Positions 49,474-63,809 of a DNA stretch of 64,000 nt are shown piece by piece; the first letter of the stretch is position 1, and the number at the start of each line of letters is the position of its first letter. Location of the stretch: positions 146,960-210,959 of the forward strand of contig JBFLWJ010000003.1 of NCBI GenBank assembly GCA_040757835.1, written 5' to 3'. Made by a program: the position numbers and the translations under genes. The notes beneath the pieces are model-generated. The model saw only the letters and a list, made by a program, of their open reading frames with translations, made no database searches and had not been told where the DNA came from. The DNA is from Actinomycetota bacterium (lineage in GTDB: Bacteria; Actinomycetota; Geothermincolia; Geothermincolales; RBG-13-55-18).

Positions 49474-50430
49474 GTGCAGACGGCTCTCTTGATAATCCTG
49501 GTCTCCTTCTTCGCCATGAACATGGGGGCCAGCGGGTTTGCCCCCTCCATGGCCGCGGCCTATGGCGCCGGCTTCCTGGACCGCCTGTGGACGGTGCTCT
49601 TCTTCTCCCTCTTCGTGCTGCTGGGAGCGGTGGTCGCCGGGGGCAGGGTGGCGGAGACCATCTCCCACGACATCGTCCCCTCGGGTTACATGGACACCAC
49701 GGTAGCCCTCATCGTCATCACCGCGGCGACCATCTCCCTCTTCCTGGCCAACCTGCTCAAGGTGCCCCAGTCCACCAGCCAGGTGACGGTGGGGTCCCTG
49801 GTGGGCGTGGGCATCCACCTCGGGCACCTCAACGGCGCGCCCTTCAAACTCATGATCCCCCTCTGGTTCATCCTGCCCTTCGCCGCATACTCCATAACCC
49901 TTATCCTCGGCAAGTGGGCCTATCCGCGCCTGCGCAAATACGTGCTGGCTCAGAACCTCATGCGCCGCTACCGGCTGCTTCAGGCCTTCGTCATCGCCTC
50001 CTCATGTTACGCGGCCTTTTCCATCGGCTCCAACAACGTGGCCAACGCCGCCGGTCCCCTGGTTGGCGCCAATATCATAAGCGCCATGGCGGCCACGCTC
50101 TTCGTGGCCCCGTTCTTCGGCATGGGGGGTGCCGCCCTCGGGTTCGGCAACCTGGAGACGGCGGGGAAAGAGCTGACCCCCCTGGGCGTCCTCAGCGCGA
50201 CCCTGGTGAGTTTCGTGGGAGCCTCCCTGCTGCTGGTGGCCAGCGGGCTGGGCATGCCCGCCTCGGAAGTCCAGATAAAACTGGGGGCCATCTTCGCCAT
50301 TGGCGTGGTCAAGAACGGGCACGTCTTCATGTTCCGCAATCCGGCCGCACGCAGATCGGCCGTGGTCTGGGTGGTCGCGCCGGTCCTGTCGGTCGCCATC
50401 GCCTGGGGCCTGGCGCGCGTGTTCATCTGA
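49474..50430 (+). CDS. cysP: PiT-family (PHO4) anion permease, probable sulfate permease CysP
   Basis: 318-aa polytopic protein with duplicated PiT signature (NMGASGFAPSMA... and GSNNVANAAGP). Divergent from the RHH-sat operon, as in Bacillus cysP-sat-cysC. Confidence 0.7.
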   Translation: MQTALLIILVSFFAMNMGASGFAPSMAAAYGAGFLDRLWTVLFFSLFVLLGAVVAGGRVAETISHDIVPSGYMDTTVALIVITAATISLFLANLLKVPQSTSQVTVGSLVGVGIHLGHLNGAPFKLMIPLWFILPFAAYSITLILGKWAYPRLRKYVLAQNLMRRYRLLQAFVIASSCYAAFSIGSNNVANAAGPLVGANIISAMAATLFVAPFFGMGGAALGFGNLETAGKELTPLGVLSATLVSFVGASLLLVASGLGMPASEVQIKLGAIFAIGVVKNGHVFMFRNPAARRSAVVWVVAPVLSVAIAWGLARVFI

Positions 50431-50469
50431 CCAGGACGGCGGGCGGCCGGTTTAACCGGCCTGGAAGAG

Positions 50470-51360
50470 GTGATAAGATTCTCGCATCTGGCCGGGTATG
50501 CGACGCGTGAGGTGGGCTTGAACGGAACGGGAGATGATCTGCACGGCATCGCCTTGAGCATGGACGTCGAGCCGTGGTGGGCCGGTGACCTCGTGCGCGA
50601 GGGCCGCGGCGGCGGTCAGGACATCGTGGCGCCGGCCGTCGACGCCCTCCTCGGCCTCCTGGAGGGAAAGGGGGTGCGCGCCACCTTCTTCGTCCTCGGT
50701 ACGGTGGCGGAGGAAGACCCCGGCCTGGTGGAGAGGATCGCCGCCGGGGGACACGAGATAGGCTCCCACGCTTACGAACACATCAACCTCACGGAGACCA
50801 CGCGCTCCGCGTTCCTGGCGAGCGAGAAGAGGACCGTGGATATCCTGACCTCGATCTGCGGGGAGAGGCCCCTCGGGTTCCGGGCCCCCAGTTGTTCGGT
50901 GGGTCCCGGCACGCCCTGGTTCCACGAGACCCTGGAGAAAGACCTCGGCTACCGCTACAGCTCCAGCGTCTTCCCCATGCGCACTCCGCTCTACGGATAT
51001 CCCGGCACCCCCCTCGGCCCATATATCCCCGCCGGAGAGCCCGGCGGTGGACACCTGCTGGAGTTCCCCCCCACCGTCTACCGCGGGCCTCTGCTGCGCA
51101 TGCCCGTATGTGGGGGCGTGTACCTAAGGTTCCAGCCACTGTGGCTGGTCGTCCGCCTGCTGAGAAAAGTACTGCAGGAGAGACCGGCGGTGCTCTACAT
51201 CCATCCCCGCGATATCTACCCGCTGCGGGAGAAACCGCCCGGTATCGGCCTGCTCTCGCGCCTCGCGCTCTTCCACGGGGCCGGCAAGACCCTGGAAAAG
51301 ATCGCGGGGCTCCTGGACACCTTCGATTTCAAGCCCGTGAGGGAAGTGCTGTCCCTGTAG
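50470..51360 (+). CDS. polysaccharide deacetylase family protein (CE4 NodB-homology, DUF3473-type C-terminus)
   Basis: ...ATFFVLGTVAEEDPGLVERIAAGGHEIGSHAYEH (NodB His motif)...LYIHPRD...; 296 aa. Confidence 0.75.
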   Translation: MIRFSHLAGYATREVGLNGTGDDLHGIALSMDVEPWWAGDLVREGRGGGQDIVAPAVDALLGLLEGKGVRATFFVLGTVAEEDPGLVERIAAGGHEIGSHAYEHINLTETTRSAFLASEKRTVDILTSICGERPLGFRAPSCSVGPGTPWFHETLEKDLGYRYSSSVFPMRTPLYGYPGTPLGPYIPAGEPGGGHLLEFPPTVYRGPLLRMPVCGGVYLRFQPLWLVVRLLRKVLQERPAVLYIHPRDIYPLREKPPGIGLLSRLALFHGAGKTLEKIAGLLDTFDFKPVREVLSL

Positions 51361-51398
51361 CGGGGAGCACTGCCGATTTGCGCAAGGATGGTCGCCGG

Positions 51399-52370
51399 AT
51401 GAGGACGGAAGTGGCAGGACCCGCGGACATACCCGCCATCGTCGACCTCTTTAACCTGGTCTTCGGCCAGGGACGCGACGTCGACGACTGGAGGAGACTT
51501 TACTCCGGCACCCCGGCCGGCCCTCCCGTCTCCTGCGTGATCCGGGAAAGCGGGGACATCGTGGGCCACCTGGGGGCGATACCCGCATGGTATGGCAGGG
51601 GTGCTGACCGTCTGAGGGGGGCGCTCCTCGTGGACATCATGGTCCACCCGGACCGGACCCGCCGCGGCCTGGCGACACGTCTCTCCCTGGCCATGCACGA
51701 GGTCCTGGGCGAGAGCTTCGACCTGTCCTTCGGTTTCGCCAACCGGCAGGCTGTCCCCACCCATTTGAAGACGGGCATGAGCAACCTGGGAAGGGCGCCG
51801 GTATACGTCAGGTATCCGAGGCTCTCGGCGCGGCGGGAGCCGCGCGGCGGCGGGGACCTGCGCCTCAGGCCGGTCTCGCTGCACGGCCCGGAACTGGAGC
51901 TGCGGCTGGGGGAAGAGGCCTTGCCCCTGTGGCACCGCTCCCGTGACCTCGCCACCCTGAGGTGGAGATATTCCGACAGGCCGCAGGGGCGGTACGACTT
52001 TTACCTCTATGATGGTGCCGTTGCCGGCTCCGGATACATGGTCCTCGCCCGCAGAAAGATCAGGGGCCTCGATGCCGGCCTCATCATGGATATCTGGGCC
52101 GGGGAGAACGACTGGGAGGCCTGCCGCTTCATGCTCTCGCGGGCCGTGGACCTGTTGAGCGGGCAGGGCGTGCGGGTCATCGCCGCTCTTGACGTTGGCA
52201 ACCGGGCGGTGCTGTCCGCCCTGCGCAGGCTGGGCTTCTTGCGCCTGCCCCAGAGCGTCTTTCCCTCCCAGTTGAACTTCGTCTTCAAGGCCTATGGCGG
52301 CGCCGGTGTGGACATGCCCCTGCGGCGCAAGGACTGGTACCTGACCTGGGGCGATACCGACCTGGTGTAG
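51399..52370 (+). CDS. GNAT-family acetyltransferase-like protein
   Basis: Start at internal Met (MRTEVAGPADIPAIVDLFNLVFGQ...) of the longer ORF; ...HPDRTRRGLATRL... acyl-CoA-binding-like segment; ~323 aa. Confidence 0.55.
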   Translation: MRTEVAGPADIPAIVDLFNLVFGQGRDVDDWRRLYSGTPAGPPVSCVIRESGDIVGHLGAIPAWYGRGADRLRGALLVDIMVHPDRTRRGLATRLSLAMHEVLGESFDLSFGFANRQAVPTHLKTGMSNLGRAPVYVRYPRLSARREPRGGGDLRLRPVSLHGPELELRLGEEALPLWHRSRDLATLRWRYSDRPQGRYDFYLYDGAVAGSGYMVLARRKIRGLDAGLIMDIWAGENDWEACRFMLSRAVDLLSGQGVRVIAALDVGNRAVLSALRRLGFLRLPQSVFPSQLNFVFKAYGGAGVDMPLRRKDWYLTWGDTDLV

Positions 52371-52378
52371 CTACGGCC

Positions 52379-54502
52379 TCACGGCTTCTCGGATATGTCC
52401 AGCCTGCCCACCTCCACCTGCCCGGCGGACCTGTAACAGGGCAGTACGCCTATCTTCACGTACCTCGTATGCTCGCTGAGGACGATGTCGGTCTTCTCCT
52501 CGCCCCCGTGCCAGACGATGAAGTTCCTGCGTGTCCACTCGCCCGTATCCCGGTGTATCTTCATCTCCACCCTGGAGATGAGCGCCTGCGGAGAGGGCGC
52601 CGCGTACTGGTAGAAGACCAGGTATACCTGGGGCTCGCCTTCGGCGACGCGGGTGTTCATGGCTATGCGGTACCGCCGGGCAGGGTCGACCTCGATGTAG
52701 CCGCGGTTGATGAAGACCAGCGCCCCCGCGTCGTCCCGCGCCGTCACCCTCAACCTGGTGCTCGTGATATCGTCCCCATCATCCACGTGCACCGACTCGA
52801 CCTCCATGGGTTCACGGCCCTCCCACTGGAACCAGGCCCAGCCGCCGAACCGGGTGAAGCCGTTCACCACCTCGCTGTCCTCGAGCTTGGGGTCGGGGGT
52901 GGATGCGAGTACCGCGGTGTCCAGTCCTTCCGGGTCCACCGCGTAAAGGTCGAAGGCCGCGTTCCTCTCCTCCAGCACCCCGTTCAGCAACAGCGCGGCG
53001 TCGAGCGAGGACTTGTCGCGGGCCACCAGGGTGTCGGTTATGCGGAACTCCCCGAGTAGTTCCCCCCACCCGTCGGGCGCGGGGGAGGCGTAGGCCTGCT
53101 CCAGCCGTTCGTTTCTGGCGGTGATGATCTCGGGAGACGCATGCCCCTGCGTGATCGAGTAGATGTTGTAGCCGGAGATGCCCATGAGCATGTATCCCTG
53201 CACGGGATGGGCGAGCAGGTTGCGGCCCTCGCCTCCCGTCTCCATGAAGGCCTCGACCGGCGCGTAGCCGTCCTTGCCCATGATGTCCTGATAGCGCCGT
53301 GCCGTGACCACCAGCGAGGCGACGAAGAACACCCCGACCACGGCCAGGATCACCGGAATGGCCACCGCCCTCCACCTCTGCAGCCTCCATATGTCCACCC
53401 CCAGCCCCAGGGCCAGTCCGATGACCAGGGGGATACGCATCACGTACGCGAACCTCCAGTAGAACGCGATGCTCACCGGGAGCAGGAAGGAGAGGGCGAT
53501 GACCGTGAAGGCCAGGGCCCACGCCAGCAGGAAGACCCTCTCGCGTTCCTTCCGGAGCAGGAAGGGCAGGCCGATGAAGAAGAACACGGTTGCCTGGAAG
53601 AAATACCCGAATGATGAGTACCTCTCCACGGGCTCCCCGAGGGCCGAGTTCGCTCCCTGGATCGAGCCCCCGAATATGTCCCACCAGTGATAGAGCGGCC
53701 ACAGGGAGAGCAGGGCCAGGGCGGCGGGGATGAGCGAGAGCAGCAGCAGGTGCCGGCGCGTGAGCCGCTTCTCCCATGCGGCGTACACCACCACCAGGAG
53801 GACCAGGACGAGCAGGTATCCTATGCCCGTGAGCAGGTGGATGTTGAGCACCAGTACCGCCAGCAGCAACTGCAGCAGGTAGCTCTTCCAGTCCCCCTCC
53901 TTCAGGTACCTGATGTTGCGGGCCAGAGCCAGCATCATCAGGCCCATGGCCACGACCGACGCGTAGTGGGCGCAGGCGAGCAGCTCTACGAAGGAGAAGG
54001 AGTTTCCCCTGACCACCACCTCGGCGCTGCAGAGGACCAGCGAGAACATCGCCGCCAGGAAAGCGGCGCGGGAAGACCCGGAGAGGGCGCGGGTGAGGAA
54101 ATAGATGCCCGACAGAAAAAGGGATATCCCGAGGAGCCCGAATACGTAGAGGGCGGTGAAGTCGGAAGCACCGGGAACGGAGGCGATGAGCGCCATGGCC
54201 ACGTAGTTGATGCCGCTGCGTTCGTTGCCGCTGTACAGCCCCGGGAACAGGTCGGCGTCGAGGTCGTCGCCCAGACCTATACGGTCCTCGACGGTGCGCA
54301 GCATGCCCAGGTGGCCGTAGGTATCGGCCCCCGATTCACGGAAGGGCAGCCTCTCCTGGTAGAAGTAGAAGGTGTACAGGGCGGCCATGGCCAGGATGAG
54401 CGCCAGCAGCGCCAGGATATAGGGGTCGCGGCCCGCGCCGCGTCCGGCCACCACGCTCTCGTCCGCCGGCGGACCTTCCCCGTTCTCAGCCGTCCCGCGC
54501 AT
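52379..54502 (-). CDS. large polytopic membrane protein with C-terminal extracytoplasmic domain (GT-C-like glycosyltransferase / polymerase candidate)
   Basis: ~12 predicted TM segments over the first ~430 aa, then a ~280-aa soluble domain. Start uncertain (Met28 at 54502, or GTG ~54454 which avoids overlap with DUF2304 gene). Confidence 0.55.
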   Translation of the reverse strand: MRGTAENGEGPPADESVVAGRGAGRDPYILALLALILAMAALYTFYFYQERLPFRESGADTYGHLGMLRTVEDRIGLGDDLDADLFPGLYSGNERSGINYVAMALIASVPGASDFTALYVFGLLGISLFLSGIYFLTRALSGSSRAAFLAAMFSLVLCSAEVVVRGNSFSFVELLACAHYASVVAMGLMMLALARNIRYLKEGDWKSYLLQLLLAVLVLNIHLLTGIGYLLVLVLLVVVYAAWEKRLTRRHLLLLSLIPAALALLSLWPLYHWWDIFGGSIQGANSALGEPVERYSSFGYFFQATVFFFIGLPFLLRKERERVFLLAWALAFTVIALSFLLPVSIAFYWRFAYVMRIPLVIGLALGLGVDIWRLQRWRAVAIPVILAVVGVFFVASLVVTARRYQDIMGKDGYAPVEAFMETGGEGRNLLAHPVQGYMLMGISGYNIYSITQGHASPEIITARNERLEQAYASPAPDGWGELLGEFRITDTLVARDKSSLDAALLLNGVLEERNAAFDLYAVDPEGLDTAVLASTPDPKLEDSEVVNGFTRFGGWAWFQWEGREPMEVESVHVDDGDDITSTRLRVTARDDAGALVFINRGYIEVDPARRYRIAMNTRVAEGEPQVYLVFYQYAAPSPQALISRVEMKIHRDTGEWTRRNFIVWHGGEEKTDIVLSEHTRYVKIGVLPCYRSAGQVEVGRLDISEKP

Positions 54503-54890
54503 CCGCGTCGTCCCCCTCCCCGCCGTCTTCCCCCTCCGCTTCCTCCCCCACGAGGCGAAGCAGCTTCTCCTCCAGCACCGCAAGCCTCTGGACCATCCTG
54601 TTGTACCCCTTGCTCTGCCTGCTGAGCACCGCCGAGAAATGGATCATGATCCCGAAGATGAAGAGGAAGGCGAGGCCGAAGATGATGGAGGGCGGATAGT
54701 AGATCCTCAACACATCGGCCAGCTTCTGCAGGAGCGCCGGCCAGGCGCTGAGGACGATGATGGATATGCCGAGGAGGATCCAGAGTATCGCATAGCGCTC
54801 GCCCAGTGACCCCCTCCGCACCAGCTCGACGATGAGGGCGATCATCAGCAGACCGGCGACGATGCCCGTGACCGCGATATTCCAGTTCAA
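54486..54890 (-). CDS. DUF2304-family small membrane protein (GT2-associated)
   Basis: 134 aa; two-to-three TM helices, LVRRGSLGERYAILWILLGISIIVLSAWP... pattern and C-terminal coiled/acidic tail; immediately downstream of a GT2 gene. Confidence 0.7.
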   Translation of the reverse strand: MNWNIAVTGIVAGLLMIALIVELVRRGSLGERYAILWILLGISIIVLSAWPALLQKLADVLRIYYPPSIIFGLAFLFIFGIMIHFSAVLSRQSKGYNRMVQRLAVLEEKLLRLVGEEAEGEDGGEGDDADARDG

Positions 54891-54903
54891 GATGGTATAT
54901 CCT

Positions 54904-55614
54904 TCACCCGATCTTCCCCCTGCCTCTTCTCCCCCGCAACGCGCAGATCGCGACGGCGAGGGTCACCTTGCTCATATAATACACGGCGACGCCCGTGTTT
55001 ATCACCGATTTGCCGCTCTCCCTCCGCAGGGAGTCTATGGGGACCTCCTCCACCGTGAACCCCTCGAGGTTCGACATCATCAGCGCCTCTACCTCGGGGA
55101 AGTCGTCCGGATAGTCGCGGGCGAAGGCCTCCAAGGCCCGGCGGCCGTATCCCCGGAAGCCGCAGGTGGCGTCCGTGATGTGGTAGGAGGTAAGCCGGTT
55201 GACCAGCCAGGACAGGAACCTGTTGCCGACGAGCCTCGCGCTCCAACCCCCGCCATTGCGGCCGTTAAAGTAACGGCTCCCGATGACCAGGTCCGCCTGC
55301 TTCTCCCGCAGGGACTCGAGGAGCAGGGGGATGTCGGCGGGATCGTGCTGGCCGTCTCCATCCATCCTGATGACGAAGTCGTATCCCTCCTCGGCGGCCA
55401 CCTGGAGACCGGCCTGCTCCGCCACCCCTATGCCCGCGTTGAAGGCTAGGGACAGGCACCTCGCCCCGGCCCGCACCGCCCTTTCCCGCGTGCCGTCCTC
55501 GCTGCCGTCATCCACGACCAGCACTTCGGCGTCCAGCTCGCGCCGGACCTCGGAGACGACCCTCTCGATGCTGTCCTCCTCGTTATGGGCGAGGATCACG
55601 ACCAGCGTGTTCAA
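54904..55614 (-). CDS. GT2-family glycosyltransferase (polyprenyl-phosphate sugar synthase-like)
   Basis: LVVILAHNEEDSIE...VLVVDDGSEDGT...DGDGQHDP (DxD/DGD motifs). Start assigned to TTG after GGAGGCGGAAGGG SD. Confidence 0.8.
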   Translation of the reverse strand: MNTLVVILAHNEEDSIERVVSEVRRELDAEVLVVDDGSEDGTRERAVRAGARCLSLAFNAGIGVAEQAGLQVAAEEGYDFVIRMDGDGQHDPADIPLLLESLREKQADLVIGSRYFNGRNGGGWSARLVGNRFLSWLVNRLTSYHITDATCGFRGYGRRALEAFARDYPDDFPEVEALMMSNLEGFTVEEVPIDSLRRESGKSVINTGVAVYYMSKVTLAVAICALRGRRGRGKIG

Positions 55615-56609: not shown

Positions 56610-56771
56610 CGTCCCCCTGCTCTCTCCGCCATAGGGTCCGTCCGGCTGCTGCGGATGGTTATACGCGGTTCGACGGTCCTCTGAGCACATACCAATTCTA
56701 CGCACGCGCGGTGCATCGGGCAATCGCGCCGCCGCCGGCCGCGGCTCGCGCCCGCACGGTCAACCGGGCCA

Positions 56772-58271: not shown

Positions 58272-58428
58272 GTGTTTTCTCATCTCCCGCGCTCCCGCGC
58301 CGCCGGCGGAGGTTGTTAGTGATTATACGCCACTCCCCGGCCGTGGACCTCCAGGCCGGATGATACCATGGATACGCGGGACCCGTTATAACGCCGTGTC
58401 TTTTGGGTTATAGTATCGACACGGGTCC

Positions 58429-59496
58429 ATGACCGCGCGGCCGGCCACCCGTAGCCGGCCGGCAGGAAAGAGACGCTCGATAGGACGGTACCTGTTGGAG
58501 AACCGCTGCCCCCTTTGCGCATCGACGCGGACCGCACCGTTCTCGCCCCTCGGGGAAGGGGACGGCCGCTCCGGCGAGGGCTACCGTGTATACGGGTGCG
58601 GCGACTGCGGCGTCGCCTTCACCTGGCCCAGGCTCGACACGGCCGAGACCTCGGACCTCTACGGGGACGACTATTACTCCTTCCGCTCCACCAGCCTGGA
58701 GAGCCTGCCGTTGTGGGGATCCGCGGCCACGGCGCTGGACCGGGCCCTGCGCCTCCTGCGCGGGAGGAGATCGCGTCTCGCGGACCTCCTGGAGAGGCTG
58801 CTGTTCTGGCCGGCGAGGAACGTCCCCCAGGCGGTCCCGCTCTTCTATCCCGGGAGGGATGTGCTGGACCTGGGCTGCGGCGCCGGGGACCAGATGGCCT
58901 TGTGGCGGCGGGTCGGGCGCAACGTGCGGGGGGTCGATATATCGCCCCGCGCCGCGGCGGAGGGGGGCAAGCGGGGCCTGGATATATTCACGGGGGAGAT
59001 ATGGGAGGCGGGCTTCGCGGCCGGTTCCTTCGATATCGTCTACGCGAACCAGGTCATAGAGCACACCGGCGACACCCACGCCACCCTGCGGGAGATATGG
59101 CGGGTGTTGCGGCCGGGGGGGGTGCTCATCGTGGGGGTCCCCAATACCGCCAACCGCTTCCTGGCCGTCTTCAAGTCCGGCTGGGCCTTTCTCCAGATAC
59201 CCTTTCACTTCCTTCACTTCGATCCCGCCAGTCTCTGCGCGGCCCTCGCCCGGGACGGTTTCTTTATCCGTAAGGTCTACACCATCACCCCCGCGGCCGG
59301 GCTCCTCGAGAGCCTGGCCAGGATGTTCCCGGGCTTCGGGCGCGTCTATGCCGACTGCCACCTGAAGGCCCCGTGTATCGCCGCGTATGTCCTGCTGTCA
59401 CTGCTCCTGTTGCCCTGCAACCTGGGGCTCCGGGGCGACCTGCTGTACGTCATCGCCGTGAAGGGAGGCCAGTCGCCATGTCCGGGCCCGCGGTAG
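58429..59496 (+). CDS. class I SAM-dependent methyltransferase with N-terminal Cys4 zinc-ribbon
   Basis: CPLC...CGDCG zinc ribbon; VLDLGCGAGDQ (motif I), FDIVYANQVIEH, LRPGGVLIV. Confidence 0.75.
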   Translation: MTARPATRSRPAGKRRSIGRYLLENRCPLCASTRTAPFSPLGEGDGRSGEGYRVYGCGDCGVAFTWPRLDTAETSDLYGDDYYSFRSTSLESLPLWGSAATALDRALRLLRGRRSRLADLLERLLFWPARNVPQAVPLFYPGRDVLDLGCGAGDQMALWRRVGRNVRGVDISPRAAAEGGKRGLDIFTGEIWEAGFAAGSFDIVYANQVIEHTGDTHATLREIWRVLRPGGVLIVGVPNTANRFLAVFKSGWAFLQIPFHFLHFDPASLCAALARDGFFIRKVYTITPAAGLLESLARMFPGFGRVYADCHLKAPCIAAYVLLSLLLLPCNLGLRGDLLYVIAVKGGQSPCPGPR

Positions 59497-60587
59497 CTTT
59501 CATCGACTGCCTGCACGGCAGCGGCAAGGAGGGCGGCGCGGACATCGCCGCCCGGGACCTGGCGGAACGCCTGCGCGGGGCCGGCGCCAGGACCCGCATC
59601 CTGTCCTTCCGTGATGGCATACCCCTGGCGCTTCCGGACCTCCTGAAGACCAAGCCGCTGCTACGGGAACTCACGGCCTTTCCCCTGGGCGGCCGCAAGG
59701 GGATGCGGGAGGCTGAGGGTGGGTACGACGTCATCCACCTCAACTCCCTGGCCCTGGCCCCCCTCTACAGGCCCCGCCTCCCCGTCGTCATCACCCTGCA
59801 CAACATCCAGTGCCAGAAGTTCACCAGGTACATGGGGGCCGGACGCCTTCCCCTGCTCTTCAACCGCCTCACCCGCTTCCCTTTCCGGCTGTCCGAGAGG
59901 CGGGCGGCCGGGAACATCGACCGCTTCATCTGCGTGCACCGGGGCATCGCCGACTTCCTGCGGGACGGGATGGGGATAGCGGAGGACCGTATCGCGGTGA
60001 TCCCCAACGGCGTGGACACCGAGCTGTTCAGGCCCGGAGGAGACAAGGTCAGGCGCGTCGTCTTCGTGGGGAGGGCCACCACCACCAAGGGGTTCGACGT
60101 GCTGGCGGAGGCGGCGCCCATGATCGACGCCCCGATCATGGCCGTGACCAACAAGATGCGGCCGGCCATGGCGGCGAGGGCCGCGGCGGCGGGCATGGAG
60201 GTCAGGTGGGACCTGAGCCACCGGGAACTGGCCCCTCTGATATCATCGTCGAGCCTCCTGGTCCTGCCCTCCTGGGACGAGGAGCAGCCGCTGGTGGTCA
60301 TCGAGGCCATGTCCTGCGGCCTGCCCGTGGTGACCACCCCCGCGGGGGCGTCCGACCTCATCCGCGACGGCCAGGGCGGCCTGGTGGTCCCGCCCCACGA
60401 CCCGCGGGCCCTGGCACGGGCCGTCAACCACATCCTGGGCGACGAGCGCATGATAGAGTCCATGGGCGCGGCCAACCGGCATATCGCCGAGGCCAGCCAT
60501 GCCTGGCCCGTGGTGGTCGCGCGGGTGATGGATGTCTACGGCGATGTCCTCGACAGCGCCCGCCGGGGCGGGGGGCCGCCCTATTGA
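59478..60587 (+). CDS. GT4-family glycosyltransferase
   Basis: Start at Met (MSGPAVAFID...); C-terminal EEQPLVVIEAMSCGLPVVTT (GT4 E-x7-E region). Confidence 0.8.
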   Translation: MSGPAVAFIDCLHGSGKEGGADIAARDLAERLRGAGARTRILSFRDGIPLALPDLLKTKPLLRELTAFPLGGRKGMREAEGGYDVIHLNSLALAPLYRPRLPVVITLHNIQCQKFTRYMGAGRLPLLFNRLTRFPFRLSERRAAGNIDRFICVHRGIADFLRDGMGIAEDRIAVIPNGVDTELFRPGGDKVRRVVFVGRATTTKGFDVLAEAAPMIDAPIMAVTNKMRPAMAARAAAAGMEVRWDLSHRELAPLISSSSLLVLPSWDEEQPLVVIEAMSCGLPVVTTPAGASDLIRDGQGGLVVPPHDPRALARAVNHILGDERMIESMGAANRHIAEASHAWPVVVARVMDVYGDVLDSARRGGGPPY

Positions 60588-62143
60588 GCTCCGGCCACGA
60601 AACGGTTGAGGAAGTCCCTCACGCGGTCGGGCCTGATCTTCATGCGCATGAGCACGAAGCAGATGATGGTAACGTCCTCCGCCTCCAGGCACCTCGAGAG
60701 CAGGAGCATCAGCATGCCCATGGCCAGGTAGGCGAAGTAGAGGGGCACCAGGCACCAGTCGCGCCCGGCGAGCGCCCAGGAGAAGAGGGGGTAGGTGACC
60801 ACGGCCCCCAGCACCGACAGCAGCAGTGGCTTGAGGTACTGGGGGGTAAAGGGGTGGATCCGCTCCAGGTAGTATATCTGCGCCGACTTGAGCACGTTGA
60901 TGACCACGTATGATGATAGGGTGGCGATAGCCGCTCCGGTCATCCCGTAACGAGGTATGAGGATCCAGCAGAGGGCGACGTTGGTGATCACGCCCGCCGT
61001 GCCGTCCGCGAGGACCAGGCGGGGCTTCCCCAGGGCCACCAGGGTCATCCCATTGGGCCCCGCGAATACGTTGAAGGACATCCCGAGGGACAGGATGACG
61101 AGGGCCGTGGACGCTTCGGCGTACCGGGCGCCCGCGAAGAAAGTGATCACCTGTTCGGAGAAGAGGACGTAGATGAAGAGCAGGGGCATGGTCAGGGTCA
61201 TGGCCCACTTGGTGGAGCTGCGGTAGATGCCGTTGATCTGCTCCTTCTTGCCTTCGGAGAGCAGCTTCGTCGTCACTGGGAGGAAGATATAGATGAGGGA
61301 GAGCATGAACATGAACAGCAGGTTCACGAAGGGGACCGCGGTGTTGTAGGCCCCGACCGTCTCCGTGGTCTTGAAGATGCCCAGCATGAAGGTGTCCGCC
61401 CAGGTCATCACCATGTTGAGCACCCCCTCCACGGCGAGGGGTATGGAGAAAAGGATAAGCGCCTTGCCCATCTTCACCGGCTTCACCGGCGCGAGCAGGC
61501 GCGGCAGATTGCGCACGGCATACACCACCGTCAGGGAACAGGTGATCACGGCGGCGGAGGCGAGGGCCGCGGCCGCCCAGGTGAGCCCGGAGTCCGTCAC
61601 CAGCGCCACGAACATCAGGGCCGCGATGAGCCCCCACATCATGGTGTCCTCGAACACCGCCTTCACGCCCACGCGGTCGAACCCCCTGAAGATGCTGCTG
61701 AGGAGGATGATGAAGACCATGAAGGGCAGGCCGATGGCGAAGATGCGGGTGATGGAGGTCAGCTGCGGTGCGTCGAATATCCCGGCCAGCGGGCCGGAGG
61801 CCGCGAAGAAAGCGACGGCAAAGGCACAGGAGGATATCAATCCTATCTTCAGGGTCGCGTAGACCGCTCCCTTGATCCTCTCCTCGTCTTTTTTGCCACG
61901 GTAATAGGAGATGAAGCGGGGCGAGCCGGAGCGCATGCCGAGTTCCGCCATGATCACCGTGAACTCCAGGATGGCGGCGCCCAGCATGATCACGCCGTAA
62001 TCGCTCTTGGAGAGGCCGCGGAAGAGGACCATCCGCTCCAGGAAGTGGAAGACGGAGGAGGCGACGAACCCCAGGAAGACGACGAACATCCCTCCCGCTA
62101 TCTTGCCCAGCGATTCCTGGAACTCCTGCTGAAGATCGGACAT
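60581..62143 (-). CDS. wzx: MOP-superfamily polysaccharide flippase (Wzx-like)
   Basis: 520 aa, ~14 TM helices, typical Wzx/polysaccharide-biosynthesis-protein hydropathy. Confidence 0.7.
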   Translation of the reverse strand: MSDLQQEFQESLGKIAGGMFVVFLGFVASSVFHFLERMVLFRGLSKSDYGVIMLGAAILEFTVIMAELGMRSGSPRFISYYRGKKDEERIKGAVYATLKIGLISSCAFAVAFFAASGPLAGIFDAPQLTSITRIFAIGLPFMVFIILLSSIFRGFDRVGVKAVFEDTMMWGLIAALMFVALVTDSGLTWAAAALASAAVITCSLTVVYAVRNLPRLLAPVKPVKMGKALILFSIPLAVEGVLNMVMTWADTFMLGIFKTTETVGAYNTAVPFVNLLFMFMLSLIYIFLPVTTKLLSEGKKEQINGIYRSSTKWAMTLTMPLLFIYVLFSEQVITFFAGARYAEASTALVILSLGMSFNVFAGPNGMTLVALGKPRLVLADGTAGVITNVALCWILIPRYGMTGAAIATLSSYVVINVLKSAQIYYLERIHPFTPQYLKPLLLSVLGAVVTYPLFSWALAGRDWCLVPLYFAYLAMGMLMLLLSRCLEAEDVTIICFVLMRMKIRPDRVRDFLNRFVAGAQ

Positions 62144-62195
62144 GCTTCCTCGATCCGTGAGATAGAGAACCGTGGCTATGGTGCCGTCAGGGGTC

Positions 62196-63809
62196 TCAGA
62201 CGGTGTCGCTTTGCCGCAGCGCCGCGATCCTGCGCCTTATCCTCTCCTTCTCCGCCCCCGTGGCATCCGGCCCGGCGGGAACGCCTCCCTCCCGCGGGGG
62301 GGTATCGGGACCGAAGATGTCCGGCCTTACACGGCCGTCCATCTCCACCGGGACCGGCAGGCCGTAGAGGCGGAGGATGAGCGGCGCCAGGTCCTCGATG
62401 CCCAGGGGATCGGCGATCTCTCCGGCCTTCGCCCATGGGTGGTGCAGCAGGAAGATGCCCTCCATGGAATGGCCCGCGCGCTCGTTGCGGGTGAAGACCT
62501 CTCCGCTTCTGGTCAGGCTGGACCTCAGTTGCCAGCCCCCGCTCTCCCTCATCATCTGGTCGGGCGGATCGACGGGCACCTCGGTCCCGTATGCCGTGCC
62601 GGTATCGAGCAGCTCGATCCCTCCGCGCTCCCCTCCGGGGTCGGTCAGCGCCCTAAGGCCCTCCTCTATCTGCCGCTTGACCTCCTCCGCATCGCGGCCG
62701 GAGAGGATGCCCCGCGGGCGGTCCTGCGTGTTCAGGTAACAGCTGTACCCCATGGCCAGGGCCCGGGTGCCGCTCCAGTCCACCCTTCCCCGCTCCAGCA
62801 GGTTGTGGATGAAATACTCGCCCTGGTTGGTCTCGCCGGCGGGCACCATCTCCCTCAGTCTGCCGGGAGCCATGCGGTAGGCCAGGTCCATAAGGCCCAC
62901 CTTCTTCAGGAGCCTGCCGATGCCGCGCTGGGTCAGCCCTATCTTCTCCAGGCCGCCGACCACCTTGACCTTGAGCAGGCCCTCGTCCACCAGCCACTGG
63001 TTGACATGGACGTTCCAGGGCCTGGCCTCGAAGCCGTGGTCGGACATGACGATAATGCAATCGTCCCCGGAAGCCATCTCCACGATCCTGCCTACCCCCT
63101 CGTCCACCAGGCTGAAGACCCGCTCCAGGGCCTCCCAGCCCCTCTCACTCTCCTCGCCGCTGCGCAGGAAAGCCTGGTTCATGAAGCAGTGGCAGATGCG
63201 GTCGGTGGCGGTGAAGACCCCCAGGAAAAAGTCGCTGGGGTGTTCGCGCAGCAGGTAGGTAATGGCCTTGATGCGTTTGTCCAGGACCCTCATACAGTCC
63301 CTGAGCAGGGTCTCGTCGTCGACGATGGTCATGGCCTGCTGGTCCACCTCGTATCCCCCGGCCACGCGGTCGAGCTCGGCCATGAGCCCCGCCGGGAAGC
63401 TGCCGAACTCCTCCTGGGGGGTGATGAATCCCGGGACGATGTATCCACGGTGCGGCTTGCGGGGATAGACCAGGGGGTCGTTGATGATGCCGCAGGTGTA
63501 CCCCTCCTCCATGAGCAGGTCCCAGAACTCGGGCTGCCTTATCTCCTTGTAGGTATGCATGCGGATGCGGTCCGATCCCCGGCTTATGCCCCGGAAATCG
63601 TAGATCCCCAGCCGCGAAGGCCGCTGGCCGGTGGAGAAGGTGAACCAGGCCGGACAGGTCACCGGGGGAAGGGTGCTCATGAGTCTGCCCCACGCCCCCT
63701 CCTCCCGCAGCCTTCCCAGGTTGGGCATCTTGCCCCTCGCGATGAGGGGGTCGATGACGTTCCAGGACCCACCGTCCAGGCCGATCACGAAAACGCGGCT
63801 CTTAGCCAT
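62196..63809 (-). CDS. alkaline-phosphatase-superfamily NPP-type enzyme (paralog 3)
   Basis: VFVIGLDGGSW, PPVTCPAWFTFSTGQRPSRLG (Thr-nucleophile motif), VMSDHGF. Confidence 0.7.
   Translation of the reverse strand: MAKSRVFVIGLDGGSWNVIDPLIARGKMPNLGRLREEGAWGRLMSTLPPVTCPAWFTFSTGQRPSRLGIYDFRGISRGSDRIRMHTYKEIRQPEFWDLLMEEGYTCGIINDPLVYPRKPHRGYIVPGFITPQEEFGSFPAGLMAELDRVAGGYEVDQQAMTIVDDETLLRDCMRVLDKRIKAITYLLREHPSDFFLGVFTATDRICHCFMNQAFLRSGEESERGWEALERVFSLVDEGVGRIVEMASGDDCIIVMSDHGFEARPWNVHVNQWLVDEGLLKVKVVGGLEKIGLTQRGIGRLLKKVGLMDLAYRMAPGRLREMVPAGETNQGEYFIHNLLERGRVDWSGTRALAMGYSCYLNTQDRPRGILSGRDAEEVKRQIEEGLRALTDPGGERGGIELLDTGTAYGTEVPVDPPDQMMRESGGWQLRSSLTRSGEVFTRNERAGHSMEGIFLLHHPWAKAGEIADPLGIEDLAPLILRLYGLPVPVEMDGRVRPDIFGPDTPPREGGVPAGPDATGAEKERIRRRIAALRQSDTV

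What the first reader, a model, noticed from the sequence alone, without database searches (positions are those of the whole stretch)
49474..63809. Envelope glycan cluster with three paralogous NPP-like enzymes, sulfate activation genes and no recognisable sulfotransferase: candidate novel glycan sulfation/phospho-modification system
Genes present: cysP (PiT), CE4 deacetylase, GNAT, polytopic GT-C-like protein, DUF2304, 2x GT2, AlkP-2, zinc-ribbon methyltransferase, GT4, Wzx flippase, AlkP-3. The three AlkP paralogs share DGG(S/T)W, T-C/V-P-A-W...(T/S)G and SDHG motifs (Thr nucleophile with two-metal ligands) but diverge elsewhere, and none shows an obvious signal peptide. Co-clustering with sat/cysC/cysP suggests a Wzx-dependent heteropolysaccharide or S-layer/teichoic-like glycan decorated with sulfate or phosphodiester groups. 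The AlkP-family proteins may substitute for a canonical sulfotransferase or act as phospho-substituent transferases like LtaS/EptA-type AlkP enzymes.
Basis: inference. Interest (0 to 1): 0.75.

Follow-up and report, generated by a model that had tools for sequence, protein, structure and literature searches.

The report
Sulfate-linked glycan cluster, orphan AlkP enzymes
A cell-envelope sugar-polymer gene cluster sits beside genes that import and activate sulfate but has no ordinary sulfate-transferring enzyme; instead it carries three uncharacterised alkaline-phosphatase-type enzymes, whose widespread family is built into sulfate-activation operons across bacteria and archaea, so it is a testable candidate for a new sulfation enzyme or sulfation helper.

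Summary
All listed genes are present, and three cytoplasmic NPP-like AlkP paralogs carry a complete Thr/two-metal catalytic set. Pfam and a PAPS-motif scan find no sulfotransferase in the 64 kb or just past AlkP-3 in a close relative.

New findings:
- AlkP-1 (46526-47881) belongs to a very large, uncharacterised family (COG3379-type).
- Across bacteria and archaea this family sits in a conserved cassette: RHH, sat, AlkP1, cysC.
- It occurs fused to APS kinase, to Sat, and once to a GT2 glycosyltransferase.
- It coexists in about 15 loci with a genuine DHH pAp phosphatase.
- AlkP-2/3-type paralogs recur beside glycosyltransferases and beside both non-homologous kinds of ATP sulfurylase.
- Many AlkP-2/3-type homologs share a C-terminal tail motif with the cassette's RHH protein.

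The link between this AlkP family and sulfate activation is therefore solid. The reaction is not established. Sulfuryl transfer to a sugar intermediate is my best reading (about 0.4). A hydrolytic helper role is a serious rival (about 0.3), because AlkP1 alternates with the pAp phosphatase in the same operon slot and minimal AlkP cores sit between cysD and cysN. I found no published AlkP-fold sulfotransferase. Verdict: partly supported, interesting and directly testable.

The parts
43429..45675 (-). 748-aa protein with one N-terminal TM helix and a GH-A/GH39-like region. Possibly a glycan hydrolase belonging to the locus; membership is uncertain.
   Evidence: No Pfam or NCBIfam hit. One TM-like segment. 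Weak match to GH39 beta-xylosidase 4ekj, E = 5.6e-6. Contains a 'VWNEPGW' motif. Weak homologs lie near the cassette in L008 and L036.
45971..46507 (-). cysC, APS kinase. Its C-terminus '...DWLGAHGYLDGTG' resembles a degenerate form of the tail motif.
   Evidence: PF01583, 208 bits. TIGR00455, 223 bits, above cut-off. Tail comparison.
46526..47881 (-). AlkP-1: a cytoplasmic NPP-like two-metal enzyme with a Thr50 nucleophile, and the core member of the cassette-embedded COG3379-type family.
47886..49028 (-). sat, ATP sulfurylase.
   Evidence: PF01747 300 bits plus PUA_2. NF003166, 481 bits, above cut-off.
49039..49272 (-). 77-aa ribbon-helix-helix-like protein, the first gene of the cassette. 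It ends in the tail 'EDEERVKERLRSLGYLD'. Probably the operon's regulator.
   Evidence: Weak NikR N-terminal hit, E = 3e-4; E about 0.4-0.8 against PDB NikR. Present upstream of AlkP1 in 52 of 59 loci with enough flank. 97% identical in a relative. Tail motif statistics.
49273..49473 (.). Divergent intergenic region between the RHH-sat-AlkP1-cysC operon and the cysP operon. It is AT-rich and contains palindromes; a candidate operator/promoter.
   Evidence: Sequence and inverted repeats at 49309-49343. One sigma-70-like match on the minus strand at 49397-49369. Function is inferred only.
49474..50430 (+). cysP, a PiT-family sulfate permease. It is co-oriented with the CE4 gene and lies 40-110 nt upstream of it.
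   Evidence: PF01384, 122 bits. NF053884 'sulfate permease', 260 bits, below the 400-bit cut-off. CE4-CysP adjacency is kept in relatives L001 and L085.
50470..51360 (+). CE4 polysaccharide deacetylase with DUF3473 (XrtA-type or NodB-like). The start is probably near 50539.
   Evidence: PF01522 + PF11959. TIGR03006, 184 bits, below cut-off. Start refined.
51360..52370 (+). GNAT-type acyltransferase (~336 aa); exact start codon not determined.
   Evidence: Acetyltransf_9 and Acetyltransf_1; borderline NodA hit at 21.9 bits against a 22-bit cut-off. No NCBIfam hit.
52379..54517 (-). Polytopic membrane protein with about 10 TM helices and a ~300-aa C-terminal domain. Candidate GT-C-like transferase or polymerase.
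   Evidence: No Pfam, NCBIfam or PDB match. TM count. The relative's ortholog has a faint DUF6057 hit and a 50%-identical paralog lying beyond AlkP-3.
54486..54890 (-). DUF2304 small 4-TM protein, a possible GtrA/ArnEF-like partner of the GT2.
   Evidence: PF10066, 80 bits. Four TM-like segments.
54904..55641 (-). GT2a, a polyprenyl-phosphate sugar synthase-like glycosyltransferase.
   Evidence: PF00535. Best NCBIfam matches are PpgS, AglJ, Dol-P-hexose transferase and ArnC, all below cut-off. Start trimmed against L085.
55611..56612 (-). GT2b glycosyltransferase.
   Evidence: PF00535, PF13641 and PF13632. NCBIfam matches are only weak. Start refined.
56772..58271 (-). AlkP-2, a cytoplasmic NPP-like paralog and the first gene of the minus-strand run AlkP-2, GT2b, GT2a, DUF2304, polytopic protein.
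   Evidence: PF01663, 89 bits. Catalytic set conserved. No TM segment. 76% identical ortholog in the same position in L085.
58495..59496 (+). Class I SAM methyltransferase with an N-terminal CPLC...CGDC zinc ribbon.
   Evidence: Methyltransf_11/23/25. Cysteine motifs and start refinement.
59436..60587 (+). GT4 glycosyltransferase.
   Evidence: Glyco_trans_1_4, Glycos_transf_1 and Glyco_transf_4. Start refined.
60581..62089 (-). Wzx/MATE-like flippase with 12 TM helices, immediately downstream of AlkP-3.
   Evidence: PF01554, PF13440 and PF01943. TM count.
62196..63809 (-). AlkP-3, a cytoplasmic NPP-like paralog with an extra helical insert and a C-terminal helix carrying a degenerate tail.
   Evidence: PF01663, 99 bits. 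AF2 model pLDDT 88. Foldseek top hits are NPP1, Xac NPP and PhnA at 12-16% identity. 100% identical to P0121 from an Actinomycetota MAG. The tail motif is present in 52 of 120 homologs.

Best explanation
This is a composite locus for making a sulfate-decorated envelope glycan in an uncultured Actinomycetota bacterium.

Shown:
1. A sulfate module. The cassette RHH, sat, AlkP-1, cysC lies divergent from an operon of cysP, CE4 and GNAT. Together these import sulfate and convert it to APS and PAPS.
2. A run of AlkP-2, GT2b, GT2a (polyprenyl-P-sugar-synthase-like), DUF2304 and a 10-TM protein. This resembles the Arn/PpgS type of pathway, in which a sugar is loaded on a lipid carrier, modified on the cytoplasmic face, flipped, and transferred outside.
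3. AlkP-3 with Wzx, plus GT4 and a methyltransferase.
4. The three AlkP proteins are soluble cytoplasmic NPP-like enzymes with an intact Thr nucleophile and two-metal site. Their family is embedded in sulfate-activation operons throughout Bacteria and Archaea.

Inferred:
The AlkP enzymes are the missing consumers of activated sulfate. They would take the sulfuryl group from PAPS (or APS) onto the metal-activated Thr, giving a sulfo-enzyme intermediate analogous to the phospho-Thr of NPP, PafA or EptA. They would then pass it to a hydroxyl or a de-N-acetylated amine of a nucleotide- or polyprenyl-linked sugar. AlkP-1 would act on a conserved acceptor close to the PAPS source, and AlkP-2/3 on cluster-specific intermediates before flipping.
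For: Cassette conservation:
- Of 59 AlkP-1 loci with enough upstream sequence, 56 have sat and/or the RHH gene directly upstream.
- Of 72 loci with enough downstream sequence, 57 have cysC directly downstream.
- These loci span Actinomycetota, Aminicenantes, Omnitrophota, Firmicutes, Bathyarchaeia, Asgard archaea, Thermofilaceae and Archaeoglobi.
- The sat-AlkP1 gap is 3-5 nt in the loci examined.

Fusions:
- AlkP::APS kinase in P0088, P0107, P0110 and P0118 and in P0395.
- Sat::AlkP in P0392.
- AlkP::pyruvate-kinase barrel::Sat in P0445.
- P0363, a domain with the full AlkP-1 signature fused to a GT2, in an operon sat, cysC, AlkP::GT2.

Not the pAp phosphatase:
- 13 species-level loci and 2 metagenome loci keep AlkP-1 together with a DHH protein.
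- That DHH protein matches PDB 8a8k, the biochemically validated PAP phosphatase of M. thermolithotrophicus, at E = 1e-79 (PMC10322725).

AlkP-2/3-type paralogs are linked to sulfate activation independently:
- The window itself, plus L024, L043, L044, L083, L084 and L148.
- L091/L092, where three paralogs and a GT4 lie next to CysD and a CysN-like GTPase.
- L146 and L152, where a paralog lies directly after the RHH gene.
- The RHH C-terminal tail motif is found on 52 of 120 AlkP-3-type homologs, against only 163 of 8,913 ORFs overall.

Other support:
- Catalytic residues are conserved in both groups.
- The proteins are cytoplasmic.
- No canonical sulfotransferase occurs in the window or in the relative's extension, and only 1 of the 80 AlkP-1-anchored loci has one.
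- Neighbours of the cassette are enriched in nucleotide-sugar enzymes: a TviC-like SDR in 33 loci, a TviB-like dehydrogenase in 19, and GT2 in 11.
- In Haloferax volcanii, sulfation of a lipid-linked hexose on the cytoplasmic side is genetically established, which makes the proposed acceptor type plausible (PMC3892788).
Against: - No AlkP-fold sulfotransferase is known. A 2024 review lists only PAPS-binding-fold enzymes and aryl-sulfotransferases.
- NPP chemistry normally attacks phosphorus, which would simply hydrolyse APS or PAPS.
- When loci are anchored on the RHH gene, the commonest cassette is RHH, sat, DHH, cysC with no AlkP-1 (19 of 39 loci with at least 3 kb downstream). AlkP-1 occupies the same slot in only 4 and both occur in 2. 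That pattern fits non-orthologous displacement of a hydrolase.
- 230-aa minimal AlkP cores, with all catalytic residues but no cap domains, sit between cysD and a cysN-like gene. This suggests a small nucleotide-type substrate.
- The pyruvate-kinase fusion suggests that enzymes which pull the reaction forward can be fused into this system.
- AlkP-1 is about 50% identical across domains of life, which fits a universal small substrate better than a variable glycan.
- The wider family is heterogeneous. One fusion, P0465, lies in a PEP-mutase/LicD/cytidylyltransferase cluster.
- Canonical sulfotransferases do follow the RHH gene in L104. One could therefore be encoded elsewhere in this genome, of which only 64 kb was readable.
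Confidence: 0.4

Rival explanations
1. Accessory hydrolase. AlkP-1, and the mini-AlkP proteins of cysDN operons, are helper enzymes of sulfate activation. They could be an analogue of pAp phosphatase, a pyrophosphatase that pulls the unfavourable ATP-sulfurylase reaction, or an APS/PAPS hydrolase that controls pool size. The true sulfotransferase would be encoded elsewhere. AlkP-2/3 would be cytoplasmic phosphatases or other hydrolases acting on glycan intermediates.
For: - DHH pAp phosphatase and AlkP-1 alternate in the same slot between sat and cysC: 19 DHH-only, 4 AlkP1-only and 2 with both, among 39 RHH-anchored loci.
- Minimal 230-aa AlkP cores lie between cysD and a cysN-like gene.
- In L145 that slot holds a protein with a HIT histidine-triad motif.
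- The AlkP::PK::Sat fusion shows that accessory, reaction-driving enzymes are fused in this system.
- The fold is that of hydrolases: NPP, PhnA and PafA.
- AlkP-1 has invariant Arg and Lys residues suited to a polyanionic nucleotide.
- Heterokont APS kinase-ATP sulfurylase-pyrophosphatase fusions are a precedent (own knowledge, not checked here).
Against: - AlkP-1 is retained intact alongside a genuine pAp phosphatase in about 15 loci from several archaeal phyla.
- Fusions and the tightest linkage involve cysC at least as much as sat, which does not fit a pyrophosphatase: cysC appears in 67 of 80 raw loci against 61 for sat, and there are five CysC fusions.
- An AlkP-1-signature domain fused to a GT2, and the spread of paralogs into glycan clusters, are not explained by a nucleotide-scavenging role.
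- The RHH gene can also be followed by canonical sulfotransferases, so slot sharing is weak evidence for function.
Confidence: 0.3
2. Phospho- or phosphono-substituent enzymes. AlkP-2/3 would install or trim phosphodiester or phosphonate substituents on the glycan, for example from CDP-activated donors through a phospho-Thr intermediate. The adjacent sulfate genes would serve another purpose.
For: - The fold and catalytic set are those of phosphoryl-transfer enzymes, and the nearest structures include phosphonoacetate hydrolase.
- A family member fused to a nucleotidyltransferase lies in a cluster with PEP mutase, LicD and a cytidylyltransferase.
- AlkP-superfamily transferases such as EptA and LtaS do use a Thr nucleophile (own knowledge).
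Against: - The window has no genes for CDP-glycerol, CDP-ribitol, CDP-choline, phosphoethanolamine or phosphonate synthesis.
- AlkP-2/3 lack the membrane anchor and the PF00884 domain of LtaS/EptA.
- AlkP-2/3-type genes co-localise repeatedly with sulfate activation of two non-homologous types and share the RHH tail.
- P0465 lacks much of the AlkP-1 signature and forms a different subgroup.
Confidence: 0.12
3. Coincidental adjacency. The sat-cysC-cysP genes serve ordinary assimilatory sulfate reduction, and the glycan cluster next door is not sulfated. The AlkP genes would be generic NPP-like housekeeping enzymes.
For: - Sat, CysC and CysP are also used for assimilation through PAPS reductase. 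In M. thermolithotrophicus the same kind of locus feeds assimilation (PMC10322725).
- Only 64 kb of the genome could be inspected.
- Synteny with the glycan genes is documented only in close relatives at 75-85% identity.
Against: - cysP is co-oriented with CE4 and GNAT and immediately upstream of them.
- No PAPS reductase or sulfite reductase occurs in the window.
- AlkP paralogs sit next to glycosyltransferases and sulfate-activation genes in unrelated phyla.
- Gene fusions and the shared tail motif are not expected from chance adjacency.
Confidence: 0.08

Closest known systems
Nucleotide pyrophosphatase/phosphodiesterases (Xanthomonas NPP, ENPP1-7) and phosphonoacetate hydrolase PhnA, in the alkaline-phosphatase superfamily (PF01663)
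   Different: - Only 12-19% identical, and profile E-values to solved NPPs are only about 1e-5.
- Cytoplasmic, with no signal peptide.
- Large family-specific cap inserts.
- A Phe aligns where NPP has its phosphoryl-binding Asn, though that alignment is weak.
- Embedded in sulfate-activation operons, which is not reported for NPP or PhnA.
Glycan or glycolipid clusters that combine PAPS synthesis with canonical sulfotransferases (rhizobial NodPQ/NodH, mycobacterial Stf0, Vibrio sp. KMM 8419 sulfated capsule, cyanobacterial synechan)
   Same: PAPS-synthesis genes lie inside or beside a polysaccharide cluster. This arrangement has been described as a hallmark of sulfated polysaccharide synthesis (PMC11641403).
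   Different: Those systems carry PAPS-binding-fold sulfotransferases (PF00685, PF03567, PF13469). None is detectable here. AlkP-fold proteins occupy that logical place instead.
ATPS, APS kinase and DHH PAP phosphatase locus of Methanothermococcus thermolithotrophicus (PMC10322725)
   Same: Sat and CysC of the same type. The same DHH PAP phosphatase (E = 1e-79 to 8a8k) is found in many related cassettes headed by the same RHH gene.
   Different: The window's cassette has AlkP-1 rather than the DHH enzyme. No PAPS reductase or sulfite reductase is nearby. The neighbours are glycan genes, not assimilation genes.
Haloferax volcanii low-salt N-glycan pathway (Agl5-Agl15), in which Agl7 is required for sulfation of dolichol-phosphate-bound hexose
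   Same: A lipid-linked sugar is sulfated before being flipped by a Wzx-like flippase. This is the step proposed here for AlkP-2/3 (PMC3892788).
   Different: The protein family of Agl7 (HVO_2046) could not be established with the tools or papers available, so homology to the AlkP proteins is untested. The haloarchaeal AlkP clade that was found (P0232) is a different, very highly conserved group in an unrelated context.
Three-component lipid-linked sugar modification systems (ArnC/ArnD/ArnEF/ArnT; PpgS with Rv3632 and a GT-C; GtrA/GtrB/GtrV; CsbB/GtcA/YfhO)
   Same: A GT2 whose best matches are polyprenyl-P-sugar synthases, next to a small 4-TM protein, a large polytopic protein with a C-terminal domain, and a CE4 deacylase.
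   Different: All family matches fall below curated cut-offs. The polytopic protein matches no GT-C Pfam family. Known systems of this kind have no AlkP-family member and no link to sulfate.
LtaS, EptA/MCR-1 and OpgB phospho-substituent transferases (AlkP superfamily, PF00884)
   Same: AlkP superfamily, a metal-activated Thr nucleophile, and transfer of a group through a covalent enzyme intermediate. This is a mechanistic analogy for a ping-pong transferase.

Membership tests
PF01663 / NPP-type alkaline-phosphatase-superfamily enzymes | Sequence match to the PF01663 profile above the gathering threshold | tested here: met
   AlkP-1 160 bits, AlkP-2 89 bits and AlkP-3 99 bits, against a cut-off of 23.
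PF01663 / NPP-type alkaline-phosphatase-superfamily enzymes | Thr (or Ser) nucleophile plus six Asp/His ligands of a two-metal site | tested here: met
   D12, T50, D203, H207, D259, H260 and H410 (AlkP-1 numbering) are invariant in the AlkP-1 family. They are conserved in the AlkP-2/3 group, where the nucleophile is Thr in 25 and Ser in 7 sequences. The assignment of D203/H207 rests on conservation and predicted secondary structure; HMMER's weak alignment shifts it to D214/H218.
PF01663 / NPP-type alkaline-phosphatase-superfamily enzymes | NPP-like three-dimensional fold | tested here: met
PF01663 / NPP-type alkaline-phosphatase-superfamily enzymes | Secreted or ecto-enzyme localisation, as in characterised NPPs | tested here: not met
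   No TM-like segment or signal-like N-terminus. The catalytic Asp lies at residue 12-16.
PF01663 / NPP-type alkaline-phosphatase-superfamily enzymes | Nucleotide pyrophosphatase or phosphodiesterase activity | not testable with these tools
   Requires an enzyme assay.
Canonical PAPS-dependent sulfotransferases (PF00685, PF03567, PF13469, Stf0) | PAPS-binding fold with 5'-PSB and 3'-PB motifs | tested here: not met
   No Sulfotransfer_* hit for any window protein. No 5'-PSB motif in any window ORF of at least 120 aa. The same methods did detect canonical enzymes in L043 and L104.
Canonical PAPS-dependent sulfotransferases (PF00685, PF03567, PF13469, Stf0) | Sulfuryl transfer from PAPS to an acceptor | not testable with these tools
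   Functional claim only. It is supported indirectly by context and fusions.
LtaS/EptA/OpgB phospho-substituent transferases | N-terminal multi-TM anchor with an extracytoplasmic PF00884 catalytic domain | tested here: not met
Formylglycine (S1) sulfatases | C/S-x-P-x-R motif providing the formylglycine nucleophile | tested here: not met
pAp (3'-phosphoadenosine-5'-phosphate) phosphatases (CysQ/FIG, NrnA, or MtPAPP DHH type) | FIG or DHH fold | tested here: not met
   AlkP fold. The DHH-type enzyme is a separate gene in related cassettes.
pAp (3'-phosphoadenosine-5'-phosphate) phosphatases (CysQ/FIG, NrnA, or MtPAPP DHH type) | Functional equivalence, expected to show as mutual exclusion with a genuine pAp phosphatase in the same operon | tested here: inconclusive
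   The two alternate in the same slot: 19 DHH-only against 4 AlkP1-only loci. They also coexist in 13 species-level and 2 metagenome loci.
RHH-headed sulfate-activation cassette (RHH, sat, X, cysC), defined here | Small RHH-like gene with the RLxxLGY tail, then sat, an inserted enzyme, and cysC, on one strand with short gaps | tested here: met
   Window 49272 to 45971 on the minus strand. The same order occurs in 38 of 57 loci with both flanks.
Arn/PpgS/Gtr-type three-component lipid-linked sugar modification system | GT2 polyprenyl-phosphate sugar synthase | tested here: inconclusive
   The best NCBIfam hits of GT2a are PpgS, AglJ, Dol-P-hexose transferase and ArnC, but at 36-85 bits against cut-offs of 325-529.
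Arn/PpgS/Gtr-type three-component lipid-linked sugar modification system | Small multi-TM partner plus a large polytopic GT-C transferase | tested here: inconclusive
   DUF2304 has 4 TM helices. The 712-734-aa protein has about 10 TM helices plus a C-terminal domain but matches no GT-C family; its ortholog has only a faint DUF6057 hit.
Wzx/Wzy-dependent heteropolysaccharide pathway | Priming phosphoglycosyltransferase and Wzy polymerase alongside Wzx | tested here: not met
   Wzx is present. No Bac_transf, Glycos_transf_4 or Wzy_C domain was found in the window or in the relative's extension up to FlgM.

The most novel reading that the evidence does not exclude
The COG3379-type AlkP proteins would be a new, widespread class of sulfotransferase, present in more than 2,000 50%-identity clusters at E <= 1e-30 across Bacteria and Archaea. 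They would be built on the alkaline-phosphatase fold and use a metal-activated Thr and a covalent sulfo-enzyme intermediate to move sulfate from PAPS or APS onto nucleotide- or lipid-linked sugars. Together with the adjacent CE4 deacetylase this could include N-sulfation. The enzymes would be recruited to the sulfate-activating machinery through the C-terminal RLxxLGY tail that is shared by the cassette's RHH regulator, some APS kinases and many AlkP paralogs.
Probability: 0.3. Interest if true: 0.9.

Novelty: new variant of a known kind. Interest (0 to 1): 0.72.

Why it matters
Sulfated glycans and lipids are common in archaea and in many uncultured bacteria, but the enzymes that add the sulfate are mostly unidentified. 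Current searches rely on the PAPS-binding fold. This family is conserved, often fused, and built into sulfate-activation operons in Asgard archaea, Bathyarchaeia, Aminicenantes, Actinomycetota and others.

If these AlkP-fold proteins are the sulfuryl transferases, that would add a new enzyme class, explain sulfation loci that appear to lack a transferase, and provide new biocatalysts for making sulfated sugars. If they are instead hydrolytic helpers, they would be a new and widespread component of PAPS metabolism, alongside CysQ and the DHH PAP phosphatase.

Either way the question can be tested with one recombinant protein and labelled PAPS. The shared C-terminal tail points to an unrecognised protein-interaction network around sulfate activation.

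Tried and rejected
1. Agl7 lead. Haloferax Agl7 (HVO_2046) is needed for sulfation of DolP-hexose (PMC3892788). None of the papers held states its protein family, and the supplementary table is not held. A search seeded with a haloarchaeal AlkP homolog (P0232) returned no protein named Agl7. It returned a separate clade that is more than 80% identical across genera, has Ser at the nucleophile position, and sits in an unrelated neighbourhood of CetZ, PolX and pilus genes. No link was established.

2. Reading past the window. P0121 is 100% identical to AlkP-3 and lies on a 327-kb contig, but it is not in the contig index. I used an 80%-identical relative instead.

3. Foldseek against AFDB50 was unavailable.

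4. The NTP-transferase::AlkP fusion (P0465) first looked like support for sugar sulfation. I rejected it as evidence because its AlkP domain lacks much of the AlkP-1 signature and its context is a phosphonate or phospho-substituent cluster.

5. Positional equivalence was considered as a functional argument, both for DHH versus AlkP-1 and for canonical sulfotransferases versus AlkP after the RHH gene. I judged it weak in either direction, because the RHH gene precedes many different sulfation-related genes.

6. A Nod-factor-like reading (NodC-like GT2, NodB-like CE4, NodA-like GNAT, methyltransferase, PAPS genes) was considered. The NodC, NodB and NodA matches are all far below or only at the cut-offs, so I did not adopt it.

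7. Literature searches for COG3379, PF01663 with sulfotransferase, and alkaline-phosphatase-superfamily sulfotransferases found nothing relevant.

8. Promoter and terminator scans and the repeat search of the divergent intergenic region gave no statistically meaningful signal.

Full report
**Organism and approach.** The window is about 64% GC. I chose genes by third-position GC and annotated them with Pfam and NCBIfam. AlkP-3 is 100% identical to a protein from an NCBI "Actinomycetota bacterium" MAG on a 327-kb contig. The closest related loci are uncultured Actinomycetota MAGs. Positions 1-36 kb are housekeeping: RodA, PBP2, MreBCD, NDK, ValRS, ClpXP, trigger factor, SmpB/tmRNA, FtsEX, transketolase, RF2 and SecA.

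**Observation.** The layout is five transcription units:
- Minus strand, 49272 to 45971: a 77-aa RHH-like gene, sat, AlkP-1 and cysC. The sat-AlkP-1 gap is 4 nt. A 748-aa membrane-anchored GH39-like protein follows.
- Plus strand, 49474 to 52370: cysP, CE4+DUF3473 and GNAT.
- Minus strand, 58271 to 52379: AlkP-2, GT2b, GT2a, DUF2304 and a ~10-TM protein of 712-734 aa.
- Plus strand: a zinc-ribbon methyltransferase and GT4.
- Minus strand, 63809 to 60581: AlkP-3 and Wzx.

Comparison with relatives trims several maximal ORFs and removes the apparent overlaps. The exception is that AlkP-1 has DCASP rather than DGG(S/T)W. No Sulfotransfer_* domain or 5'-PSB motif occurs in the 64 kb. In a relative 80% identical in AlkP-3, the cluster continues with a methyltransferase and a paralog of the polytopic protein and then ends at FlgM, again with no sulfotransferase, priming glycosyltransferase or Wzy.

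**AlkP-1 is part of a conserved sulfate-activation cassette.** AlkP-1 homologs are very numerous: more than 7,800 word-index hits, and 12,723 clusters at 50% identity with E <= 1e-3, of which 2,193 have E <= 1e-30. They are about 50% identical across Bacteria and Archaea. I examined 80 species-representative loci:
- Of 59 loci with enough upstream sequence, 56 have sat and/or the RHH gene directly upstream on the same strand.
- Of 72 loci with enough downstream sequence, 57 have cysC directly downstream.
- Of 57 loci with both flanks, 38 have all four genes.

Fusions confirm the link. AlkP::APS kinase occurs in P0088, P0107 (Desulfotomaculum copahuensis), P0110, P0118 and P0395. Sat::AlkP occurs in P0392. 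AlkP::pyruvate-kinase barrel::Sat occurs in P0445. P0363 carries almost the entire AlkP-1 signature, is fused to a GT2 glycosyltransferase, and lies in an operon sat, cysC, AlkP::GT2. Recurrent neighbours of the cassette are a TviC-like sugar epimerase (33 loci), a TviB-like nucleotide-sugar dehydrogenase (19), GT2 (11), TauE permease (11), further AlkP paralogs (8) and sugar nucleotidyltransferases (6). Much of the epimerase and dehydrogenase signal probably comes from the many related Aminicenantes genomes.

**Is AlkP-1 the pAp phosphatase?** In 10-13 archaeal loci an extra gene lies between sat and AlkP-1. It is a DHH protein matching PDB 8a8k, "PAP phosphatase from M. thermolithotrophicus", at E = 1e-79 over its full length. 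That enzyme is biochemically PAP-specific and is encoded next to ATPS and APSK (PMC10322725). Stable coexistence argues against AlkP-1 being simply a pAp phosphatase.

The opposite pattern appears when loci are anchored on the RHH gene in metagenomes. Among 39 loci with at least 3 kb downstream:
- 19 are RHH, sat, DHH, cysC with no AlkP-1.
- 4 have AlkP-1 in that slot.
- 2 have both.
- 5 or 6 have RHH, CysD, a 230-aa protein and a CysN-like GTPase.
- 1 has RHH followed by an AlkP-2/3-type gene.
- 1 (L104) has RHH followed by two canonical sulfotransferases.

The 230-aa proteins are minimal AlkP cores. They retain every catalytic motif but have no cap domains. In L145 a protein with a HIT-triad motif occupies that slot (motif read from the sequence). 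The RHH gene therefore heads a general sulfation module with variable content. Slot sharing is consistent with a hydrolytic or nucleotide-processing helper role, but it is weak evidence either way.

**AlkP-2/3-type paralogs are also tied to sulfate.** Besides the window, such paralogs lie within about 10 kb of the cassette in L024, L043, L044, L081, L083 (three paralogs plus AlkP-1 and cysC), L084 and L148. In L091/L092, three paralogs and a GT4 sit beside CysD (343 bits against a 195-bit cut-off) and a CysN/EF-1alpha-like GTPase, which is the non-homologous type of ATP sulfurylase. They also recur next to large polytopic membrane proteins and glycosyltransferases (L085, L087, L090).

There is also an unexpected shared motif. 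The very C-terminus of the RHH protein, "...(S/T)xE(D/E)..(V/I)x(E/D)RL(R/K)xLGY(L/I)x", reappears at the C-terminus of:
- 52 of 120 AlkP-3-type homologs,
- 16 of 150 distant AlkP-1-type representatives,
- two APS kinases,
- one sulfatase-family protein,
- one PAPS_reduct-family protein.

Only 163 of 8,913 ORFs in all fetched DNA carry it, and 154 of those are the RHH proteins. In the window the RHH tail is canonical, CysC and AlkP-3 have degenerate versions, and AlkP-2 has none. I read this as a shared docking or assembly peptide; that is inference.

**The glycan side.** GT2a's best matches are polyprenyl-phosphate sugar synthases (PpgS, AglJ, Dol-P-hexose transferase, ArnC), all below cut-off. 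With the adjacent 4-TM DUF2304, the ~10-TM protein with a C-terminal domain, and the CE4 deacylase, this resembles Arn/PpgS/Gtr-type systems. In those systems a lipid-linked monosaccharide is modified on the cytoplasmic face, flipped, and transferred outside by a GT-C enzyme. This comparison is inferred from the architecture and from my own knowledge of those systems. AlkP-2 heads that operon, and AlkP-3 heads the Wzx operon. cysP is co-oriented with CE4 and GNAT, so sulfate uptake and glycan tailoring are physically coupled, and this arrangement is conserved in close relatives. In Haloferax volcanii, sulfation of DolP-hexose before flipping is genetically documented through Agl7 (PMC3892788). 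That makes a lipid-linked acceptor plausible, but I could not establish Agl7's family.

**Mechanism and weighing.**
- Shown: the gene content, the intact catalytic sites, the cytoplasmic location, and the tight, conserved and fused association of this AlkP family with sulfate activation and, less strongly, with glycosylation.
- Inferred as the best single reading (about 0.4): the AlkP enzymes consume PAPS or APS and transfer the sulfuryl group, through a Thr-linked intermediate at the two-metal centre, to sugar intermediates on the cytoplasmic face.
- Main rival (about 0.3): they are hydrolytic helpers acting on pAp, PPi, APS or PAPS, and the sulfotransferase is encoded elsewhere.
- Smaller rivals: phospho- or phosphono-substituent chemistry (about 0.12), supported by the family's heterogeneity (L174), and chance adjacency (about 0.08).

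The slot alternation, the mini-AlkP cores, the pyruvate-kinase fusion, the very high conservation of AlkP-1 and the lack of any precedent for sulfuryl transfer on this fold favour the second.

**Novelty.** My literature searches found no description of this family or of an AlkP-fold sulfotransferase. A 2024 review of polysaccharide sulfotransferases lists only PAPS-binding-fold enzymes and PAPS-independent aryl-sulfotransferases. The locus type, a glycan cluster combined with PAPS synthesis, is known (PMC11641403). The candidate modifying enzymes, the RHH-headed cassette as a unit, and the shared tail motif appear to be undescribed. I rate it a new variant of a known kind, with a categorically new enzyme class as the open possibility.

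Noticed in passing
window 49039-49272 (-); also L012:9367-9990, L077:9587-10177, L084:16149-17813, L146:8768-9580, L151:4234-5481: A C-terminal tail motif, '...E(D/E)..(V/I)x(E/D)RL(R/K)xLGY(L/I)x-COOH', is shared by the cassette's RHH protein, many AlkP-2/3-type enzymes, two APS kinases, a sulfatase-family protein and a PAPS_reduct-family protein. It may be a docking peptide of a sulfation protein network.
   Followed up: partly
L123:8552-9244, L102:1891-2583, L160:2761-3453, L161:8478-9176, L091:4434-5138: 230-aa 'mini-AlkP' proteins keep all AlkP catalytic motifs but have no cap domains. They lie between CysD and a CysN/EF-1alpha-like GTPase, downstream of the same RHH gene.
   Followed up: partly
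L145:9032-9478: In one CysD...CysN-like operon, the slot usually held by the mini-AlkP is occupied by a 148-aa protein with a HIT histidine-triad motif ('DHFHVHIIP'). HIT proteins are known to act on adenylyl-sulfate.
   Followed up: no
P0445 (1151 aa), from the representative library: A triple fusion of an AlkP domain, a pyruvate-kinase barrel and ATP sulfurylase, suggesting that ATP regeneration is coupled to sulfate activation.
   Followed up: no
P0392 (856 aa): A Sat::AlkP fusion whose AlkP domain aligns with Ala-Tyr in place of the catalytic Asp259-His260 pair. This may be an inactivated domain or an alignment artefact.
   Followed up: no
P0232 and 115 relatives; L088:8001-9350: A haloarchaeal AlkP clade of about 447 aa is more than 80% identical across genera (Haloferax, Haloarcula, Natronomonas and others). 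It has Ser at the nucleophile position and lies next to CetZ and PolX genes. Its function is unknown, and this degree of conservation is unusual.
   Followed up: partly
window 43132-43355 (-): A raiA RNA motif (Rfam RF03072, 167 bits) lies upstream of the hibernation-promoting-factor gene (42399-42977), between the housekeeping block and the sulfation locus.
   Followed up: no
window 29206-29550 (+): A tmRNA gene (RF00023, 160 bits) lies immediately downstream of smpB (28659-29162).
   Followed up: no
window ~20170-21580: A 1.4-kb low-GC islet (41-47% GC against about 64%) lies directly beside two tRNA genes (19958-20032 and 20095-20167). It has two small minus-strand ORFs (137 aa and 165 aa), and the larger has an RHH/CopG-like stretch. 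It is probably a small horizontally acquired element or toxin-antitoxin pair.
   Followed up: partly
window 39325-42323 (-): Two tandem HD-GYP-like (HD_5) proteins lie between SecA and HPF. The same arrangement flanks the cassette in close relatives (L001, L005, L006).
   Followed up: no
window 50470-52370 (+) and 55611-56612 (-): A NodB-like CE4, a GNAT with a borderline NodA hit (21.9 bits against a 22-bit cut-off), a GT2 with a weak NodC hit, a methyltransferase and PAPS genes together echo the logic of Nod-factor biosynthesis. All of these matches are weak.
   Followed up: partly
L174:1-18175: An NTP-transferase::AlkP fusion (P0465) lies in a cluster with PEP mutase, LicD, a cytidylyltransferase and a sulfatase-like protein. 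Part of the COG3379-type family may therefore work in phosphonate or phospho-substituent decoration rather than sulfation.
   Followed up: partly
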